Origin: Carcharhinus longimanus
Taxonomy: Eukaryota
Reading direction: 5' to 3'
Length of the DNA stretch: 64,000 nucleotides
Assembly: GCA_030264375.1 (NCBI GenBank)
Contig: JASCQW010000081.1
Span: 92,305,768 to 92,369,767 of the forward strand
Made by a program: the position numbers. Of this stretch, positions 18,001 to 57,000 are shown in pieces (the stretch's first letter is position 1; every line of letters begins with the position of its first letter).

Positions 18001-21000
18001 GCCGACCGGAACCGACTTGATCCGAGGCGGTAAAGGGTCGTTAAAACCCAATTGAGAATCTTTGCCGCAAAGTTGCTAGAAATGTTCAAACTTAAAACTT
18101 CCTTCAACCAACACGCTGCTCTCTGAATCTGTCTTCACGTTTTTTCATCAAAAAAATCAGAACATGATTTGATACCTCAAACAAATTGCCACATCCAGGA
18201 GCATAATCTGGTGACATATACATCATGTTTCCAGCAACAGCTCATTTCTTCCACCATCGCGTGTTCTCGTTATGACCACCGTAAAACACTCCCATGCGTT
18301 ATCTATCATACCTCAGAAAATTGCAAAGTAATTTGGGAGGTACACTCATTCAGACAATCATGAAGTAACTAATCCCTTGTCTCTTGCACATAGCAAGCAG
18401 GTGTGAGGGATTTAGATGATTGGTTTCTGGCTGCAGAGGGACCAGCCACTGAACTTACATCGTTGGTCTAATTCAATTAATGCTGAATTAAATTGTCACA
18501 ATGTGAGATTGTGACAATTAATACTAATTTATCTGCTTTCCGTGGAATAGATTTGCAAAGCACGATATAGATTATATCATTCAGAGTGGTAAACATCTTA
18601 CCGGATTGTTGTATTGGAAGATTTCTCCGAGGCTGTATGATTTCTGTGAATATTGTATTGTTTGGTATTCTTTACATATATAAAGTATGAGACGCTTTTG
18701 CTTAGCAACTAGTAACCAGTTGAAATGTTCTACTCAAATGCAATGCTTCCGGCGGTTAAATGAATAGGTATTCGAATAAAAAGTCTTATTCTGCATGATA
18801 CATCTTAACTTTAAATTGTCTGCTCCTCTTTTCCGAAAATAGATATCTCTAATATTGCTCGTATCTCACTATAGTAATTGGGGTTCAGTTGTCTTGTCAT
18901 TCCCAAGCTATAAATTGACTGAAAGTAGTTTGTCACTATTTTGCGGCAGATAGCAAGTGTATCCATATTTGGGTTAATAATATAAACAATAATCATCACA
19001 TTGAGTCAAAGGGTCTCATAAAATTGTGGTTTGTGCATTAGAAACTGAACAGGTTTATATGCGCTCCACATGTTGTAATTAGTTATAATAATATATAATA
19101 ATAATGTTATAATCATATTGGTATCAGCATTCAGTATTCCTTCAGGGATATTTGAGCGAGGGTCAAGTCCCACATTTCGATGGAATCGTATCATAAAAGA
19201 GCTATTGTGACAAATATCATTCCTCAATGAGCATCATAAAATAACGATTGTCCAGCTACCTCTGTTTGTGTGAATTTCCTGTGTGTTAATTGGATGTCTC
19301 TTTTCATACTGCTCAAAAACCCCCCTGCAAATTGTTTTTGATCGTCCACTAGTCATGCATTGGTACAAATATTTCATTCTTTCTCTCAGCTCAATCAGGA
19401 TAACAATTGCACCAATTAACATTTCGCACCGACTTAAACTTGGGACAATTGTTCAGCCTAATTAATAAACTAACCCAAGCCTCCATATCTATTGGAAATA
19501 TATGAACATTTCCACCTATCCAGCATTGGAGTGCACCATTTAGATTACAAGCAAGAATAAAAAAGTGACTGACTTTGTGAAAATAATTATTTAATTGGTC
19601 TTTGCATAATGATGATTGGATAAGCTACTTTGCTGGCAGAAATTCTTCCCGAGGTACTATTTTCAGAAATGAAATTGCTACGCAAAGCCAATATAATTTG
19701 GGCCTGGGAAGTATTCACTTGCATGCAGAAACCATTCTCCCAAATTATTTGTTCATATATTTTCACGAATACTGATGCACATTTTGTATAGCAATTGTTA
19801 GTGATCATCAATAAGAAAATATTTGTAAACAGATTCAGAAATGGCGTCAAAGTTAAAACATAGAATCAACTTAATTGCAGTGATGTCAACAAGCATTGGC
19901 AAAAGTTCACCGAGTGAATCATCAGTGATAAATTTCGACATGACAGGAAAATCACCTAATTTCTTCTAACACTTTGGTGCATCAGGTGCCGATCAAAAAT
20001 CAATCATTTTATGGAAACAAACATAAAAAGGAGAAAATAATATGATTAAAAATATAAATTGTAGCATGTGGCGAGAATTTACCTTTCTCTTTTTGCTTCA
20101 GGCTTTCTTCTAATTGGGCAAATGAATTGTGAAATAAGGCAAAATGCATTGGGTAGTTTACAATGCATTGTAATGGCCATCTACACCTTTATTTCCACTG
20201 AAGTATCTGGATAAAGTGTCCAATGAATTGTTATGTTAAACAAATGCCCTGGCTTATCCAGAATCTTTTGACATTGCGAAAGCTTGGAAATAATTTCTCT
20301 ATCAAGAAGTATATGAAGATAATATCTCACTTAACCCAAATAGGTTTTACTCACGTGTCTTTTGCAAAGTTTGCTTCATGATACTAAGTTCTGAAAAACA
20401 AAAATGTCTTATATAAAATCTAAAATTTTATTTTGCGTCCACTTCTTTATAATAGGAGATCCAAAAATATAATTTACTTTAGCGACAATATAGCACGTCT
20501 CTAACTTTGCAGAATAATTTTTTTTCCACTGCACAGCAGTGTTAGAGAATAAAACTACATATATTGAGGATTCAATTTCTCTCTAAATGTGGTGAAACAT
20601 CTTGCATTAGAGGAAACATTTGTTTGGCTAAGAGAAATGTGCATGTGGTTTAAGAAACACCTTAGAATACTAAAAACATCATTTTAGAAGTGCGAAAACA
20701 GACACATCTGTTCAGATGAAGAGATTAACTGATTTTAATGATCCAATAAGAGATCAATTTGTTACTTTCCCCTTCGGTTACAGTTCACCATGAAAGTCTT
20801 CAATACATAATAGATTACCAATTGATACACATTTTCATAAGAAAGGTAAAGAAAATAATAACTAAGAACAGAAGTAGGCAATTCAGCCCATCGACCCTGC
20901 TCCACCATTCAGTACAATCGTCGCCTATCTCACCTCGGGATCAACTCCACTCTCCTGACTGTTCCCCATAACGTTCAACCCAATACTTATTGAATACCTA

Positions 21001-54000: not shown

Positions 54001-57000
54001 AGTCCCAGGGTAGTGTCCTCGGCCCAATCATCTTCAAATAATTCATGAATGACCTTCCCTCCGTCATAATGTCAGAAGTGTGAATGCTTGGCGACGATTT
54101 CACATTGTTGAGAACCATTTCTGACTCCTCAGATGTTGAAGTAGTCCATGTTCAATTGCAACAATATTTGGTCAATATACAGGCTTGTGCTGACAAGTGG
54201 CAAGTAGCATTCACGCTACACAAATGCCTGGCATTGTCCACAGCAATAGGAAACGCTCTAGTCACCGCCCCTTGACATGCAATGGTGCTACCATCACTGA
54301 ATGTCCGACTGTCAACATCCTTGTGCTTACTGTTGACTAGAAACTAAAATAAACCCGCATAAACACATCGACTACAAGAGCAGGTGACAGGCAAGGAAAA
54401 CTGCAGCGAGTAAACGAATTCCTGACTCCCCAAAGCCGGTTCACCATCTACAAGGCACAAGTCAGGAGTGATTTGGAATACTCCCCAGTTGCCCGGATCG
54501 TTCAACTCCAGCAACACTCAGGAAGCTTAAGGACAAAGCAGCCTGCTTCATTGGAACCACATCCACAAACATCCTCGTCGTCTATCACCAACGCTGAGTA
54601 GCAGCTTAGCGTATTATCTGCAAGATGCGCTATAACAGTTCACCAAAGATGCTTAGACAGCACCTTCCAAACCTATGACCATTTCCATGTCGAATACCAA
54701 GGGCAACAGACGCACGGGAACAAGACTGCCTCTTTGCCACTTAGAAGTCCAACCAGTAAATATATTGCCATTCGTTTACAGTCGCTGGGTCAACATTCTG
54801 AACGTCCTCCCTAATGTCACCGTGGGTCAACCAGCAGCACGTGCACTGTAGCGTTTGAAGAATGCAGCTCATTTCCACCTTCTCAAGGGCAACAAGAGAG
54901 GAGCGTTACATGCTGGCCACCCATCGACGCCTATGTTCCATGATTGAATTAAAAAAAAGTCTATAGACCTAACATACTATATGTGGGAACTTGTGCCCGA
55001 AAAATTCAAAGGTCGTGAATCTCACATCCGCTGCGCTAATGTTTTTAGCGGGCGGGGAAAATCAGGCGTCGACAAATTTGCGGTGTTACGGTGAGTATCC
55101 GCGCAGGAAATCAGCAAGGAGGCAGGGTCAGCATTCAAATAGCATTTAGCATATTATTTAAATCATATTAAATGCTAGCATCTCCCACCCTGCAGGGATG
55201 TTTCACTCTAGTGAATTTACACTAGCTTCCCGCTGACCGGAAACAGGCGGGCAGACTTCGCTGAAGTGAAGAGGGGCAACCTGGCGCTCCAGGGGGTCGG
55301 GTGACAGGGAATGGTGTCCCCGGGGCATAGGTACCCTGGCAGTGCCATCCTTAACACTCTGGTGCAGTCCAATGGGTAAAATTTCAATGCCCAGCGGAAG
55401 GACACCAAGTATGGGACAGTGCCAAGGAGACTTTGCCTATTGGGGGAGAGGCTTAAGGAGTGGTGCCTATGCGGCTTAGGGAGCGGTGCCTATGGGGGTT
55501 CTCGCTGCCACTCTGCAGTCCTGATACATCGGGGAAGGAGATAGGCCAGGGATCGGGTCGCGCTGGCGTTGGNNNNNNNNNNNNNNNNNNNNNNNNNNNN
55601 NNNNNNNNNNNNNNNNNNNNNNNNNNNNNNNNNNNNNNNNNNNNNNNNNNNNNNNNNNNNNNNNNNNNNNNNGGGGGTTAGTATCCGCCTGCTGGGGGTC
55701 AGAACTTCGGGGAATGAGGAGCCTGGACTGTGGGGAAAAGGGTTGGGTCTGCAGGTGGGTTGGTTAAATGTCGAAGGTGAATGGGGGGGGTGGTAGTTGG
55801 AGAGAAGGGGGCAGGCCATGAATGGCGGGCCAATGATCAGATTGTGGTGGGAGGCGGGCGGGGTGCGGGACGGCAGAGATGGCTGCATTGCGGAGGCCGT
55901 GCAACTGGCCAGCAATCGATCAGGCCAGCAAAGAGGGAAATTGTCAGTGCCCCGTCCTCTGAAATCCAATGGTGTTCACCCTCCTGGCCTCTTCCGTGCA
56001 CAGAAAGTGGGAGATTCTTGTCTGAACTCTCATTGATGAAACCACCGTGAATTACTTCGACGCGAATTCGACATTAGAAGGTTATTGGGAGTCACTTCCT
56101 ATAAATTAGAGCCTTAAGCGTTGCTTGTCAGAGAACAAAATTAGTAATGAATGGCAAGGGTGCTACACAAATCAAACCACATTGACGGATTGCTTATACT
56201 ACGAGTATAAAACTTTATATTTCAAAAATAAAGCATTTTCTGAATAAGCATTTACCTTTGTCTTTTAAAATGAGAGCTTTGTCTGTCAAAAAAAAATCAG
56301 TTTATACAGCACATCAAAGAACATAATGCTGCATTTTGTGTTCACAGCTATATTTTGATGCAAATGTGATGAATAAACCGAATAGGTCAAATAATTGACC
56401 TGTGCTGTATCTTTGTGCTAAACTGTATAGTTGATCAGATAAACTAAGCACCTAAATTACTTTTGCGAGCATGTGGAATTTCTTATATTGCGTTCTCGTG
56501 CTCCTTTCATACATTAAAAAGAAGAATACTTTATTTCTTTTTCACCTTTCTCAAAGAGCATTGATTCAACCCTGTTCATTCCTGAAAACAAAGAACAGTT
56601 ACTACATTTGAACTGTACGTGAATTTTCTCAGCAAATTTATATAATACCAGTGATTTAGTTTACGGCATCTCCCTGAACAGAAATAAATAACCTCCTGAC
56701 GATGAAATTTTAAGGACCTTCAGTACGAATATGAAAAGTAATCTGCACAGCCTAAATGCTGTATTGGGTACAAAACGGAGATTAAAATGAATTTAGGAGA
56801 CAGTATTGCTTGCTTGCACTGTCAAAATACCTACATTTTAGATTCATTGAAAGGGGAGACATTTTGTCTTGTCTGGTGGTCCTGTAACATGGTTCCATGG
56901 TGTGAATCATGCAGTCAAAGGACTTTAAACTAGAGGAGCCAATTTGCCCTGCTGGTCCACCAGGAGTTAGACAAAATAATACTGTAAGTCAACTCTTGGT

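What the first reader, a model, noticed from the sequence alone, without database searches (positions are those of the whole stretch)
20083..56581. Two exon classes point to repeated duplication of a 36+27 cassette, giving a length-tunable coiled coil
Seen: the 36-nt exons share (E/D)-(I/L/M)-x-x-hydrophobic-(K/R/E)-x-x-(L/M), and the first four 27-nt exons share (E/D/Q)-x-x-hydrophobic-x-x-(K/Q)-(D/E)-(K/S). The E1-E2 intron (263 bp) and the E8-E9 intron (245 bp) are both short, while the other introns are kilobases long and filled with transposons. Inference: an ancient two-exon module was amplified in tandem. All exons are symmetric, so any skip keeps the reading frame, but only paired skips keep the heptad register. 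Alternative splicing could therefore tune rod length or introduce register breaks.
[Added by the scan's program, not by the reader: the finding's places include an assembly gap (unread letters, written N; its length is only estimated) at 23340 to 23439, 42811 to 42820, 45776 to 45875, 55573 to 55672. Whether the letters on both sides are continuous or in frame is not known: test that first.]
Basis: partly seen in the sequence, partly recalled or inferred. Interest (0 to 1): 0.65.

Follow-up and report, generated by a model that had tools for sequence, protein, structure and literature searches.

The report
Run of tiny repeated helical exons
Part of an unidentified gene is built from a dozen very small, repeated exons that probably encode a helical rod, an orderly but not unprecedented product of exon duplication whose proposed length-tuning by splicing remains untested.

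Summary
The exons are real features of the sequence. All share one codon split and one open frame. A generic exon filter finds 11 such exons against 2.4 ± 1.5 in 200 shuffles.

Both exon classes are similar beyond composition and follow a 21-residue period, not just heptads.

- A sixth 36-nt exon was missed (42508-42543). The order is 36,27,36,27,36,36,36,27,36,27, so the heptad register already breaks unless only one of the three adjacent 36-nt exons is used.
- E1 is a weak class member.
- Two further 27-nt exons downstream look like a degenerate fifth module.

Duplication of a two-exon unit is the simplest origin, but only exon size, phase and order support it. Flanks, the two short introns and partner similarity give no support.

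No transcript or cross-species data were available, so length tuning is untested. The gene could not be named exon by exon. The joined-exon search was left out.

The parts
56546..56581 (-). E1, 36-nt exon; weak member of the 36-nt class
   Evidence: Acceptor ...ttgttttcag, donor AAG|gtgaaa. Begins GA, ends G. Internal peptide MNRVESMLFEK. It fits the hydrophobic pattern but ranks only 8th of 242 open AG..GT 36-nt candidates (score 3.5). It shares 11-14 of 36 nt with the other class members.
56256..56282 (-). E2, 27-nt exon, partner of E1
   Evidence: Acceptor ...tttttgacag, donor AAG|gtaaat. Peptide KALILKDK; the junction codon G+AC gives Asp. Ranks 1st of 253 candidates in the leave-one-out test. 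The intron to E1 is 263 bp.
49770..49805 (-). E3, 36-nt exon
   Evidence: Acceptor ...tttttcatag, donor CAG|gtgcca. Peptide IRRLKDHLKKA; junction codon G+AG gives Glu. Ranks 1st of 242.
45409..45435 (-). E4, 27-nt exon, partner of E3; lies on an island contig between two gaps
   Evidence: Acceptor ...ctgtcttag, donor AAG|gtaagt (9 of 9). Peptide SRIIEQDK. Ranks 4th of 253. Gaps lie on both sides, at 42811-42820 and 45776-45875.
42508..42543 (-).
   Evidence: Acceptor with 19 of 20 pyrimidines then cag; donor CAG|gtaaaa. Peptide IEHLNKLIKFS. Ranks 3rd of 242. Shares 26 of 36 nt with E5, the best pair in the class. A 58-nt blastn match to E5 at 77.6% runs 11 nt into each flank, E = 3.8e-8.
41053..41088 (-). 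E5, 36-nt exon
   Evidence: Acceptor ...ttctttttcag, donor CAG|gtacaa. Peptide IENLKDIMKLS. Ranks 4th of 242.
36145..36180 (-). E6, 36-nt exon
   Evidence: Acceptor ...gaatttccag, donor CGG|gtgaga. Peptide IDQLRKSLKDT. Ranks 2nd of 242.
29636..29662 (-). E7, 27-nt exon
   Evidence: Acceptor ...cactgcacag, donor GTG|gtaagt. Peptide KAFSEKES. Ranks 3rd of 253.
20355..20390 (-). E8, 36-nt exon; the only exon that ends in C
   Evidence: Acceptor ...ttgtttttcag, donor CAC|gtgagt. Peptide LSIMKQTLQKT. Ranks 5th of 242. The junction codon with E9, C+AA, gives Gln.
20083..20109 (-). E9, 27-nt exon, partner of E8
   Evidence: Acceptor ...cccaattag, donor AAG|gtaaat. Peptide ESLKQKEK. Ranks 2nd of 253. 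The intron to E8 is 245 bp.
13456..13482 (-). c10, 27-nt exon outside the finding's range; looks like a 36-class exon shortened by 9 nt
   Evidence: Acceptor ...tttgtttccag, donor TAG|gtacgt. Peptide LEKVRAKL. Ranks 1st of 253 AG..GT 27-nt candidates when scored against the first 8 residues of the 36-nt class (8.2; next best 6.0). It is not similar to the 27-nt class (6-8 of 27 nt). It continues the heptad phase.
10581..10607 (-). c11, 27-nt exon outside the finding's range; probable diverged member of the 27-nt class
   Evidence: Acceptor ...cttgttacag, donor CCG|gtaaga. Peptide NQLKEKTA. Ranks 5th of 253, just below the four class members (7.0).

Best explanation
**What it is.** Between 10581 and 56581 the minus strand carries at least twelve very small internal exons of one protein-coding gene that I could not name. 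Six are 36 nt and six are 27 nt. Every exon has a pyrimidine tract plus AG in front and a GT donor behind. Every exon splits its codons the same way, and all are open in only one common frame.

**What it encodes.** The exons encode a lysine-, leucine-, glutamate- and isoleucine-rich peptide with no proline and no glycine inside any exon. It has a 21-residue period: a 12-residue type (acidic, I/L/M, x, x, L/V/M, ..., L/M) followed by a 9-residue type (acidic or Q, x, x, L/I/F, x, x, K/Q, D/E, K/S). The most likely product is an alpha-helical, heptad-based rod or stalk segment, such as a coiled coil or a weaker amphipathic helix bundle.

**How it arose (inferred).** A 63-nt two-exon unit was duplicated in tandem long ago. 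That left four clean copies and one degenerate copy (c10 + c11). Later the 36-nt exon alone was duplicated, giving Ex, E5 and E6, with Ex and E5 the youngest pair.

**Splicing properties.** Eleven of 12 exons end in G, and 11 of 12 begin with A followed by A, G or C. Any of those 11 exons that follows a G-ending exon therefore restores a Glu or Asp codon and keeps the frame, so the exons are physically interchangeable.

**Shown versus inferred.** Shown: the exon signals, the frame, the two classes, the 21-residue period and the break in alternation. Inferred: the helical rod, the duplication history and any regulated skipping.
For: **The exon set is beyond chance.**
- 11 hits against 2.38 ± 1.48 in 200 shuffles, maximum 6.
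- The length scan has its highest counts in this frame at 27 and 36 nt.
- One frame is open in 12 of 12 exons, against 2 of 12 and 7 of 12 for the others.
- The exons are 67% purine against 49.5% for the strand.

**The two classes are real.**
- In leave-one-out ranking among all AG..GT candidates on both strands, E3, E6, Ex, E5 and E8 are the top 5 of 242. E2, E9, E7 and E4 are the top 4 of 253.
- Residue and codon shuffles never reach the observed similarity (0 of 5000 each).

**The period is 21 residues.** Same-phase heptads score 7.1 and 8.3 within a class against 0.14 across classes, reached by 6 of 5000 permutations.

**The peptide looks helical.** There are 0 P, G, W, C or Y among 114 internal residues. 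If one of Ex, E5 and E6 is counted, one heptad phase holds L/I/V/M/F in 14 of 15 heptads from E1 to c10.

**One young duplicate is visible.** Ex and E5 share a 58-nt match at 77.6% that reaches 11 nt into both flanks.

**A fifth module is plausible.** c10 ranks first of 253 against the start of the 36-nt class. c11 ranks fifth against the 27-nt class.
Against: - **No external support.** The three exon-bearing stop-free translations searched against the 5.8-billion-protein set gave nothing: E1, E7 and Ex. Only proteins up to 2000 residues were searched, and a 9-12-residue exon cannot reach significance there.
- **No family or structure match.** Pfam on 10 exon-bearing translations gave only two sub-threshold chance hits. 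The solved-structure set gave only chance-level hits for E3, E6 and E5.
- **No transcript or cross-species data.**
- **The second core position is weak.** It is hydrophobic in only 5 of 14 heptads, being small or polar at residue 12 and K/Q at residue 19 of each module. A classical tight coiled coil is therefore not assured.
- **Common descent is not proven.** By my sums's rows, third codon positions are identical in 67 of 180 comparisons, which I judge near random for this composition, while second positions match in 116 of 180. That pattern also fits selection for residue type.
- **No support from non-exon sequence.** There is no flank similarity except Ex-E5, no likeness between the two short introns, and no co-variation of module partners.
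- **The alternating order is only modestly unlikely by chance.**
Confidence: 0.7

Rival explanations
1. The three adjacent 36-nt exons (Ex, E5, E6) are alternatives, with one used per transcript. Every mRNA then carries 36+27 four times, followed by c10+c11 (27+27), and the heptad register runs unbroken from E1 to c10. The choice changes only the surface residues of one module.
For: - The three exons are adjacent and have the same length, the same phase and similar sequences (20-26 of 36 nt). These are the kinds of criteria used to predict mutually exclusive exons (PMC3228551, abstract and section 13 read), although that paper's tests required exons of at least 15 residues and these have 12.
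- No 27-class exon or relic lies between them, and that interval has no assembly gap.
- With any one of the three counted, one heptad phase is hydrophobic in 14 of 15 heptads. With two or three counted, the phase jumps.
Against: - Including two or three does not break the frame, because 36 is divisible by 3. Decay of double-inclusion products therefore cannot enforce exclusivity.
- The introns between them are long (1419 and 4872 nt), so steric exclusion is unlikely.
- None of the twelve donors looks like a minor-spliceosome site (the consensus is recalled).
- An exact k-mer test for a docking site complementary to selector sites gave no excess over reversed or complemented controls.
- Repeat proteins such as obscurin carry many homologous tandem exons (PMC9013439, case-studies section read). 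That such exons are spliced in together is my recollection. Coiled coils also tolerate register breaks.
Confidence: 0.3
2. One reading: the array is a length-tunable rod. Regulated skipping of 36+27 pairs shortens the rod by three heptads at a time, and single skips introduce register breaks.
For: - All twelve exons are symmetric.
- 12 + 9 = 21 residues.
- The junction letters (…G | A+A/G/C…) make 11 of 12 exons interchangeable while keeping Glu or Asp at the junction.
Against: - There is no expression evidence of any kind.
- Splice signals are uniformly good: 12-19 of 20 pyrimidines and donors of 6-9 of 9. No subset of weak, regulated-looking exons stands out.
- In only two of the four clean pairs are the partners close together (263 and 245 bp). 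In the other two they lie 4.3 and 6.5 kb apart, so nothing visibly couples their splicing.
- Paper searches for this idea found nothing.
Confidence: 0.15
3. The within-class likeness is convergence. The exons were not copied from one another but were shaped by the same structural demand of a helical repeat.
For: - Identity is concentrated at second codon positions (116 of 180). At third positions it is 67 of 180, which I judge near random (my sums).
- There is no flank or intron similarity.
- Similarity among the 36-nt exons runs against that of their partners (r = -0.71).
Against: - Identical exon lengths, identical codon split and the repeated 36-then-27 order are hard to obtain without copying.
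- The likeness is class-specific with a 21-residue period, not a generic heptad likeness.
- Ex and E5 still align at the DNA level, including 11 nt of each flank.
Confidence: 0.12
4. The segment is not a coiled coil but a highly charged single helix or extended charged domain, as in the lysine/glutamate-rich luminal part of triadin. That is another gene of many exons (its tiny exon sizes are recalled) with splice isoforms.
For: - Lysine is the commonest residue (25 of 114), and acidic residues sit at nearly every junction.
- Only one core position per heptad is consistently hydrophobic (14 of 15, against 5 of 14).
- TRDN has 41 exons, splice isoforms and a Lys/Glu 'KEKE' stretch (PMC3363337, passages read). 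Its exon sizes are recalled, not seen.
Against: - The regular I/L/M at 7-residue spacing and L/V/M three residues later in every 36-nt exon is a coiled-coil signature, not an alternating K/E pattern.
- No likeness to any named protein could be tested, so membership of triadin or any other family is open.
Confidence: 0.12
5. The 'exons' are chance open stretches between chance AG and GT dinucleotides in repeat-rich non-coding DNA.
For: - AG..GT-bounded 27- and 36-nt stretches are common: 383 on the minus strand and 422 on the plus strand.
- No homologue was found.
Against: - 0 of 200 shuffles reach the observed count.
- All twelve share strand, phase and the only common open frame.
- Class members take the top ranks among 242 and 253 candidates.
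- None overlaps a repeat family found by the window's self-comparison.
Confidence: 0.03

Closest known systems
Arrays of tandemly duplicated exons in repeat proteins (obscurin given as the example; titin and nebulin named as relatives) - PMC9013439, abstract and case-studies section read
   Same: There are many neighbouring exons of equal length and phase that are homologous to each other.
   Different: Those exons encode whole folded domains of roughly 90 residues and are still about 80% identical. Here each exon is 9 or 12 residues, two exon types alternate, and most copies are too diverged for their DNA to align.
Clusters of mutually exclusive exons that arose by tandem exon duplication - PMC3228551 (abstract and section 13 read); PMC5740500 and PMC6071210 (search listing only)
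   Same: Ex, E5 and E6 are adjacent, equal in length and phase, and similar in sequence. These are the kinds of features used to predict such clusters.
   Different: These exons are shorter than the 15-residue minimum used in that paper's tests. Double inclusion keeps the frame. The introns are long. No docking/selector complementarity was found. No transcript shows exclusivity.
Heptad-repeat neck of the type II lectin receptor CD23 - PMC6791321, passages read. That the neck is built of 21-residue repeats, each on its own 63-bp exon, and that the number differs between species, is recalled and was not seen in any call.
   Same: Both are helical stalks with aliphatic residues in a heptad pattern, and (recalled) both are built from 21-residue units added by exon duplication, so that stalk length varies by whole units.
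   Different: Here each 21-residue unit is split into 36 + 27 nt by an intron. No transmembrane or lectin exon was seen in the window. No sequence likeness could be tested.
Triadin gene TRDN - PMC3363337, passages read: 41 exons, several splice isoforms, Lys/Glu-rich 'KEKE' stretch. Its tiny exon sizes and long introns are recalled.
   Same: Both are long genes with a charged Lys/Glu-rich product whose isoforms are made by splicing. That TRDN's exons are very small and its introns long is recalled, not seen.
   Different: The window's peptide has a regular hydrophobic heptad seam and two alternating exon classes. No likeness to triadin was or could be tested exon by exon.

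Membership tests
Heptad-repeat coiled coil | Hydrophobic residues at the first core position of successive heptads | tested here: met
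   L/I/V/M/F occupies one heptad phase in 14 of 15 heptads from E1 to c10 when one of Ex, E5 and E6 is counted.
Heptad-repeat coiled coil | Hydrophobic residues at the second core position (3-4 spacing) | tested here: inconclusive
   Only 5 of 14 heptads have one. It is always hydrophobic at residue 5 of the 36-nt exons. Residue 12 is K/A/S/T, and residue 7 of the 27-nt exons is K/Q.
Heptad-repeat coiled coil | Unbroken register over many heptads | tested here: inconclusive
   The register is unbroken only if one of the three adjacent 36-nt exons is used. With E5+E6, or with all three, the phase of the hydrophobic residues jumps.
Heptad-repeat coiled coil | No helix breakers | tested here: met
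   0 Pro and 0 Gly among 114 internal residues.
Heptad-repeat coiled coil | Predicted or measured helical oligomer | not tested
Single exons (9-12 residues) are below the 30-residue minimum for structure prediction.
Tandem exon duplication array | Neighbouring exons of equal length and equal phase | tested here: met
   Six exons of 36 nt and six of 27 nt, all with the same codon split.
Tandem exon duplication array | Sequence similarity between copies above chance | tested here: met
   0 of 5000 shuffles reach the observed value for each class. Class members take the top ranks among 242 and 253 candidates. E1 (8th) is weak. c10 resembles the 36-nt class, not the 27-nt class.
Tandem exon duplication array | Homology extending into flanking intron (copying of a DNA segment) | tested here: not met
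   Only Ex-E5 align, reaching 11 nt into each flank. Other flanks give nothing beyond splice signals. The two short introns align no better than shuffles: z = 0.46, with 93 of 300 shuffles reaching the observed score.
Two-exon (36+27) module copied as a unit | Partners share one history, so similarity among the 36-nt exons tracks similarity among their 27-nt partners | tested here: not met
   r = -0.71 over the 6 module pairs. The exons are too short and diverged for this to count strongly either way.
Mutually exclusive exon cluster | Adjacent homologous exons of the same length and frame | tested here: met
   Ex, E5 and E6 share 20-26 of 36 nt.
Mutually exclusive exon cluster | A mechanism that forbids joint inclusion: frameshift, short intron, incompatible splice sites, or competing RNA pairing | tested here: not met
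   36 is divisible by 3. The introns are 1419 and 4872 nt. All donors are ordinary GT sites. Complementary k-mers show no excess over controls (exact matches only).
Mutually exclusive exon cluster | Only one exon of the cluster per transcript | not testable with these tools
   No transcript data were available.
Collagen-type exons (multiples of 9 nt) | Gly-X-Y triplets | tested here: not met
   27 and 36 are multiples of 9, but the only common open frame contains no glycine.

The most novel reading that the evidence does not exclude
The array is a combinatorial rod. Because junction letters and phase are the same at 11 of 12 exons, splicing can set the number of 21-residue modules. At the third module it chooses one of three homologous 36-nt exons (Ex, E5, E6). 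Every product then keeps an unbroken heptad register from E1 to c10, but products differ in length and in the surface of one module. A run of a dozen exons of 36 nt or less, used this way in a helical protein, did not appear in the papers I searched.
Probability: 0.2. Interest if true: 0.6.

Novelty: new member of a known kind. Interest (0 to 1): 0.35.

Why it matters
If the exons are expressed as mapped, this is an unusually long run of exons far below the size the splicing machinery normally defines well. It lies in a helical protein rather than a collagen. It also shows how exon size (12 + 9 residues = three heptads) can be matched to a structural period.

That would make it a convenient natural case for asking two questions. 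How are consecutive tiny exons recognised? Does exon choice tune the length or surface of a rod?

Without the gene's name, transcripts or other species, it remains an orderly example of old tandem exon duplication.

Tried and rejected
1. **Single-exon protein search.** The tool needs at least 40 residues and refuses translations with a stop. I therefore searched stop-free genomic translations that hold one exon each: E1, E7 and Ex.
2. **Pfam on 10 exon-bearing translations.** Only HisG_C (E = 0.12) and Vac14_Fig4_bd (E = 0.26) came back, both below their cut-offs. I treat these as chance.
3. **Solved-structure sequences for E3, E6 and E5.** The hits were HisF, S100-A5, a designed protein and internalin-type leucine-rich repeats, at E = 0.018 to 7. 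They are unrelated to each other and rejected as chance.
4. **Larger exons.** I looked for one in the rest of the window to name the gene and found none convincing.
5. **Rfam and tRNA scans** for an intronic RNA gene that might mark the host gene. They found only tRNA-like repeat heads.
6. **A 27-nt exon or relic between Ex, E5 and E6.** None was found.
7. **Candidate 39961-39993 (33 nt).** It has weak splice signals and its last letter would make a stop codon with E6, so it was rejected.
8. **Candidates 59535-59570, 45537-45563, 21505-21540 and 4186-4212.** They have poor acceptors or donors and were rejected.
9. **Candidate 56693-56758,** a 66-nt hydrophobic stretch just upstream of E1. It lies in a T-rich region and has a weak donor (6 of 9), so it was not adopted.
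10. **Docking/selector complementarity.** No excess over controls.
11. **Paper searches** for a described 36/27 coiled-coil exon pattern or for register tuning by cassette exons. Searches returned 0 papers. Searches returned nothing relevant.
12. **Not run:** the prokaryotic genome collection, which is irrelevant to an intron-bearing gene.

Full report
**Map.** The finding gave only outer coordinates, so I first located the exons. The ends of the range read as splice sites on the minus strand.

| Exon | Coordinates | Length (nt) |
|---|---|---|
| E1 | 56546-56581 | 36 |
| E2 | 56256-56282 | 27 |
| E3 | 49770-49805 | 36 |
| E4 | 45409-45435 | 27 |
| E5 | 41053-41088 | 36 |
| E6 | 36145-36180 | 36 |
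| E7 | 29636-29662 | 27 |
| E8 | 20355-20390 | 36 |
| E9 | 20083-20109 | 27 |

The E1-E2 intron is 263 bp and the E8-E9 intron is 245 bp. The rest are 1.4-9.2 kb. Each exon has a pyrimidine-rich tract, an AG and a GT donor.

**Gaps, tested first.** The window has nine runs of N, and four lie in the range.
- All four are inside introns. The closest exon edge is 267 nt from a gap, so no reading frame crosses a gap.
- Continuity cannot be shown from the sequence. At 23340 and 45776 the two sides belong to unrelated repeat families. At 42811 and 55573 the flanks are unique.
- E4 stands alone on a 2955-nt island between two gaps. Its strand agrees with its neighbours, but its position rests on the scaffolding.
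- The stretch from E7 through E6 and E5 to Ex (23440-42810) is gap-free.
- I did not fill or look up any gap.

**Is it more than chance?** AG..GT-bounded 27/36-nt stretches are common: 383 on the minus strand and 422 on the plus strand.
- A generic filter with no motif in it leaves 11 hits on the minus strand in one offset. All 11 are these exons or two further ones downstream. The same offset on the plus strand gives 1.
- Lengths 15-90 nt have their highest counts in this frame at 27 (6) and 36 (5).
- 200 dinucleotide-preserving block shuffles give 2.38 ± 1.48, maximum 6.
- The thresholds were chosen after I had seen the candidates, so this is partly post hoc.
- Independently, only one frame is open in all 12 exons, against 2 of 12 and 7 of 12 for the others. 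The exons are 67% purine against 49.5% for the strand.

**Two classes.**
- *Beyond composition.* The 36-nt class (E1, E3, E5, E6, E8) has a mean pairwise BLOSUM62 score of 9.80 against -4.96 ± 2.33 for residue shuffles. Its nucleotide identity is 0.461 against 0.336 ± 0.023 for codon shuffles. The 27-nt class (E2, E4, E7, E9) scores 10.83 against -0.76 ± 2.35, and 0.574 against 0.405 ± 0.034. In all four tests 0 of 5000 shuffles reach the observed value.
- *Ranking.* In a leave-one-out ranking of every open AG..GT candidate on both strands, E3, E6, Ex, E5 and E8 are the top five of 242 (9.0-14.2; the next candidate scores 4.6). E2, E9, E7 and E4 are the top four of 253.
- *E1 is an outlier.* It ranks 8th with a score of 3.5, and shares 11-14 of 36 nt with the others.
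- *21-residue period.* The likeness is class-specific, not a generic heptad likeness. Hexapeptides in the same heptad phase score 7.1 and 8.3 within classes but 0.14 between classes, reached by 6 of 5000 label permutations.

- A profile scan found a sixth 36-nt exon, Ex, at 42508-42543. It has the strongest acceptor of all (19 of 20 pyrimidines, then cag) and a CAG|gtaaaa donor. My first filter had dropped it only for low charge.
- Ex is the closest relative of E5, sharing 26 of 36 nt. The two still align over 58 nt at 77.6%, including 11 nt of each flank.
- Downstream of the range, c10 (13456-13482) ranks first of 253 against the first eight residues of the 36-nt class. c11 (10581-10607) ranks fifth against the 27-nt class. 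Together they look like a shortened fifth module.
- The order is therefore 36,27 | 36,27 | 36,36,36,27 | 36,27 | 27,27.
- No 27-class exon or relic lies between Ex, E5 and E6.

**Register.** I placed residues in heptad phases by adding exon lengths.
With Ex added it shifts twice.
- With any one of Ex, E5 and E6 counted, one phase holds L/I/V/M/F in 14 of 15 heptads from E1 to c10.
- The second core position is hydrophobic in only 5 of 14 heptads.
- The 114 internal residues contain no P, G, W, C or Y. The commonest are K 25, L 17, E 11 and I 10.
- A helical, heptad-based rod is the best reading, but a classical tight coiled coil is not assured.
- Eleven of 12 exons end in G, and 11 of 12 start with A plus A, G or C. 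Any of those 11 that follows a G-ending exon restores a Glu or Asp codon.

**Origin.** Equal sizes, equal phase and the repeated 36-then-27 order point to copying of a 63-nt two-exon unit, followed by copying of the 36-nt exon alone. Direct traces are absent, apart from Ex-E5.
- Flanks do not align.
- The two short introns score z = 0.46 against shuffles. 93 of 300 shuffles and 46 of 300 random segments reach the observed score.
- Partner similarities do not co-vary (r = -0.71, n = 6).
- Third codon positions match in 67 of 180 comparisons and second positions in 116 of 180 (my sums).
- By hand arithmetic, the order has 5 of 126 arrangements for nine exons in which every 27 follows a 36, and 15 of 210 with Ex.
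- The duplications are therefore old, and part of the likeness may be maintained by selection.

**Introns.** 'Filled with transposons' is only partly shown.
- One ORF of the 10 scanned carries RVT_1 (43092-43643, plus strand, E = 6.5e-9).
- 43313-43978 and 50707-51372 are 73% identical copies. 23098-23336 is a third piece.
- Two tRNA-like repeat heads were found.
- A minisatellite and a (TTCC)n run lie in the E3-E4 intron.
- Sequence with a second copy inside the window covers 5471 of 64000 bases. This is a lower bound.

**Identity.**
- **Left out:** I did not run any search or fold of the joined exons. The gene is therefore unnamed.
- Single exons are below the protein search's 40-residue minimum. 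I used stop-free genomic translations each holding one exon, and found no hit for E1, E7 or Ex. Only proteins up to 2000 residues were searched, and such short matches could not reach significance anyway.
- Pfam and solved-structure sequences gave only chance-level hits.
- No larger exon was found in the window.
Nothing in my calls suggests a human contig.
The genome collection holds only bacteria and archaea, so I did not use it. Cross-species comparison therefore stayed unchecked.
- No supplementary files were opened. Exon tables in the supplements of the papers cited could bear on the comparisons below.

**Mechanism and rivals.**
- *Best reading (0.7):* real micro-exons of one gene encoding a 21-residue-periodic helical rod, made by old tandem exon duplication.
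- *One-of-three use of Ex, E5 and E6 (0.3):* this would give an unbroken register. However, no enforcing mechanism is visible: the frame is kept, the introns are 1419 and 4872 nt, the donors are ordinary, and complementary k-mers show no excess.
- *Other rivals:* convergence (0.12), a charged non-coiled helix of the triadin kind (0.12) and chance (0.03).

**Known relatives in kind.**
- Tandem exon duplication arrays (PMC9013439, abstract and case studies read).
- Mutually exclusive clusters (PMC3228551, abstract and section 13 read).
- The heptad neck of CD23 (PMC6791321, passages read; its 21-residue exon repeats are recalled).
- TRDN, with 41 exons and splice isoforms (PMC3363337, passages read; its exon sizes are recalled).
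- Five searches for a described 36/27 coiled-coil pattern or for register tuning by cassette exons found nothing relevant.

**Verdict.** It is a new member of a known kind, of moderate interest.

Noticed in passing
window 49146-49476 (minus strand) and 49340-49478: A (TTCC)n microsatellite (34.8 copies) creates long open frames on the minus strand that read as Lys/Glu/Gly/Arg repeats. It lies about 300 nt from exon E3. These could be mistaken for charged coding sequence of the same gene. They have no splice signals and are repeat artefacts.
   Followed up: partly
window 48540-48948: A minisatellite with a 23/48-nt unit, about 17.6 copies and 73-76% matches lies in the E3-E4 intron. It produces open frames of 140-230 codons in several frames on both strands.
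   Followed up: no
window 43092-43978, 50707-51561, 23098-23336, 21912-22301: These are fragments of one LINE-like family. 43092-43643 (plus strand) has an RVT_1 reverse-transcriptase hit (E = 6.5e-9). 43313-43978 and 50707-51372 are 73% identical over 672 nt, and 23098-23336 matches the same element. All are truncated pieces inside introns of the minus-strand gene.
   Followed up: partly
window 26355-26426 (plus strand) and 23860-23932 (plus strand): Two tRNA-like sequences were found: Rfam tRNA at 34.6 bits and an ARAGORN tRNA-Cys-like call. The second lies in a repeat whose inverted copy is at 25645-25775 (85.6%). It is probably the head of a tRNA-derived short interspersed element rather than a tRNA gene.
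   Followed up: partly
window gaps at 23340, 45776, 3434, 59376, 61417: Most assembly gaps abut sequence that has other copies in the window, as expected if the assembly broke at repeats. The two sides of a gap belong to different repeat families where this could be checked.
   Followed up: partly
window 4374-4397 (minus strand): A 24-nt AG..GT stretch in the same phase has a good acceptor and donor (CAG|gtgaat, 8 of 9) and begins like a 36-class exon (peptide LKRCQDT). It may be a further, shorter exon of the same gene downstream of c11. Its support is too weak to include.
   Followed up: no
window 29980-29994 (minus strand): A 15-nt AG..GT stretch in the same phase lies 318 nt upstream of E7 (peptide IKIE, donor 7 of 9). 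At this length one such hit is what chance gives.
   Followed up: no
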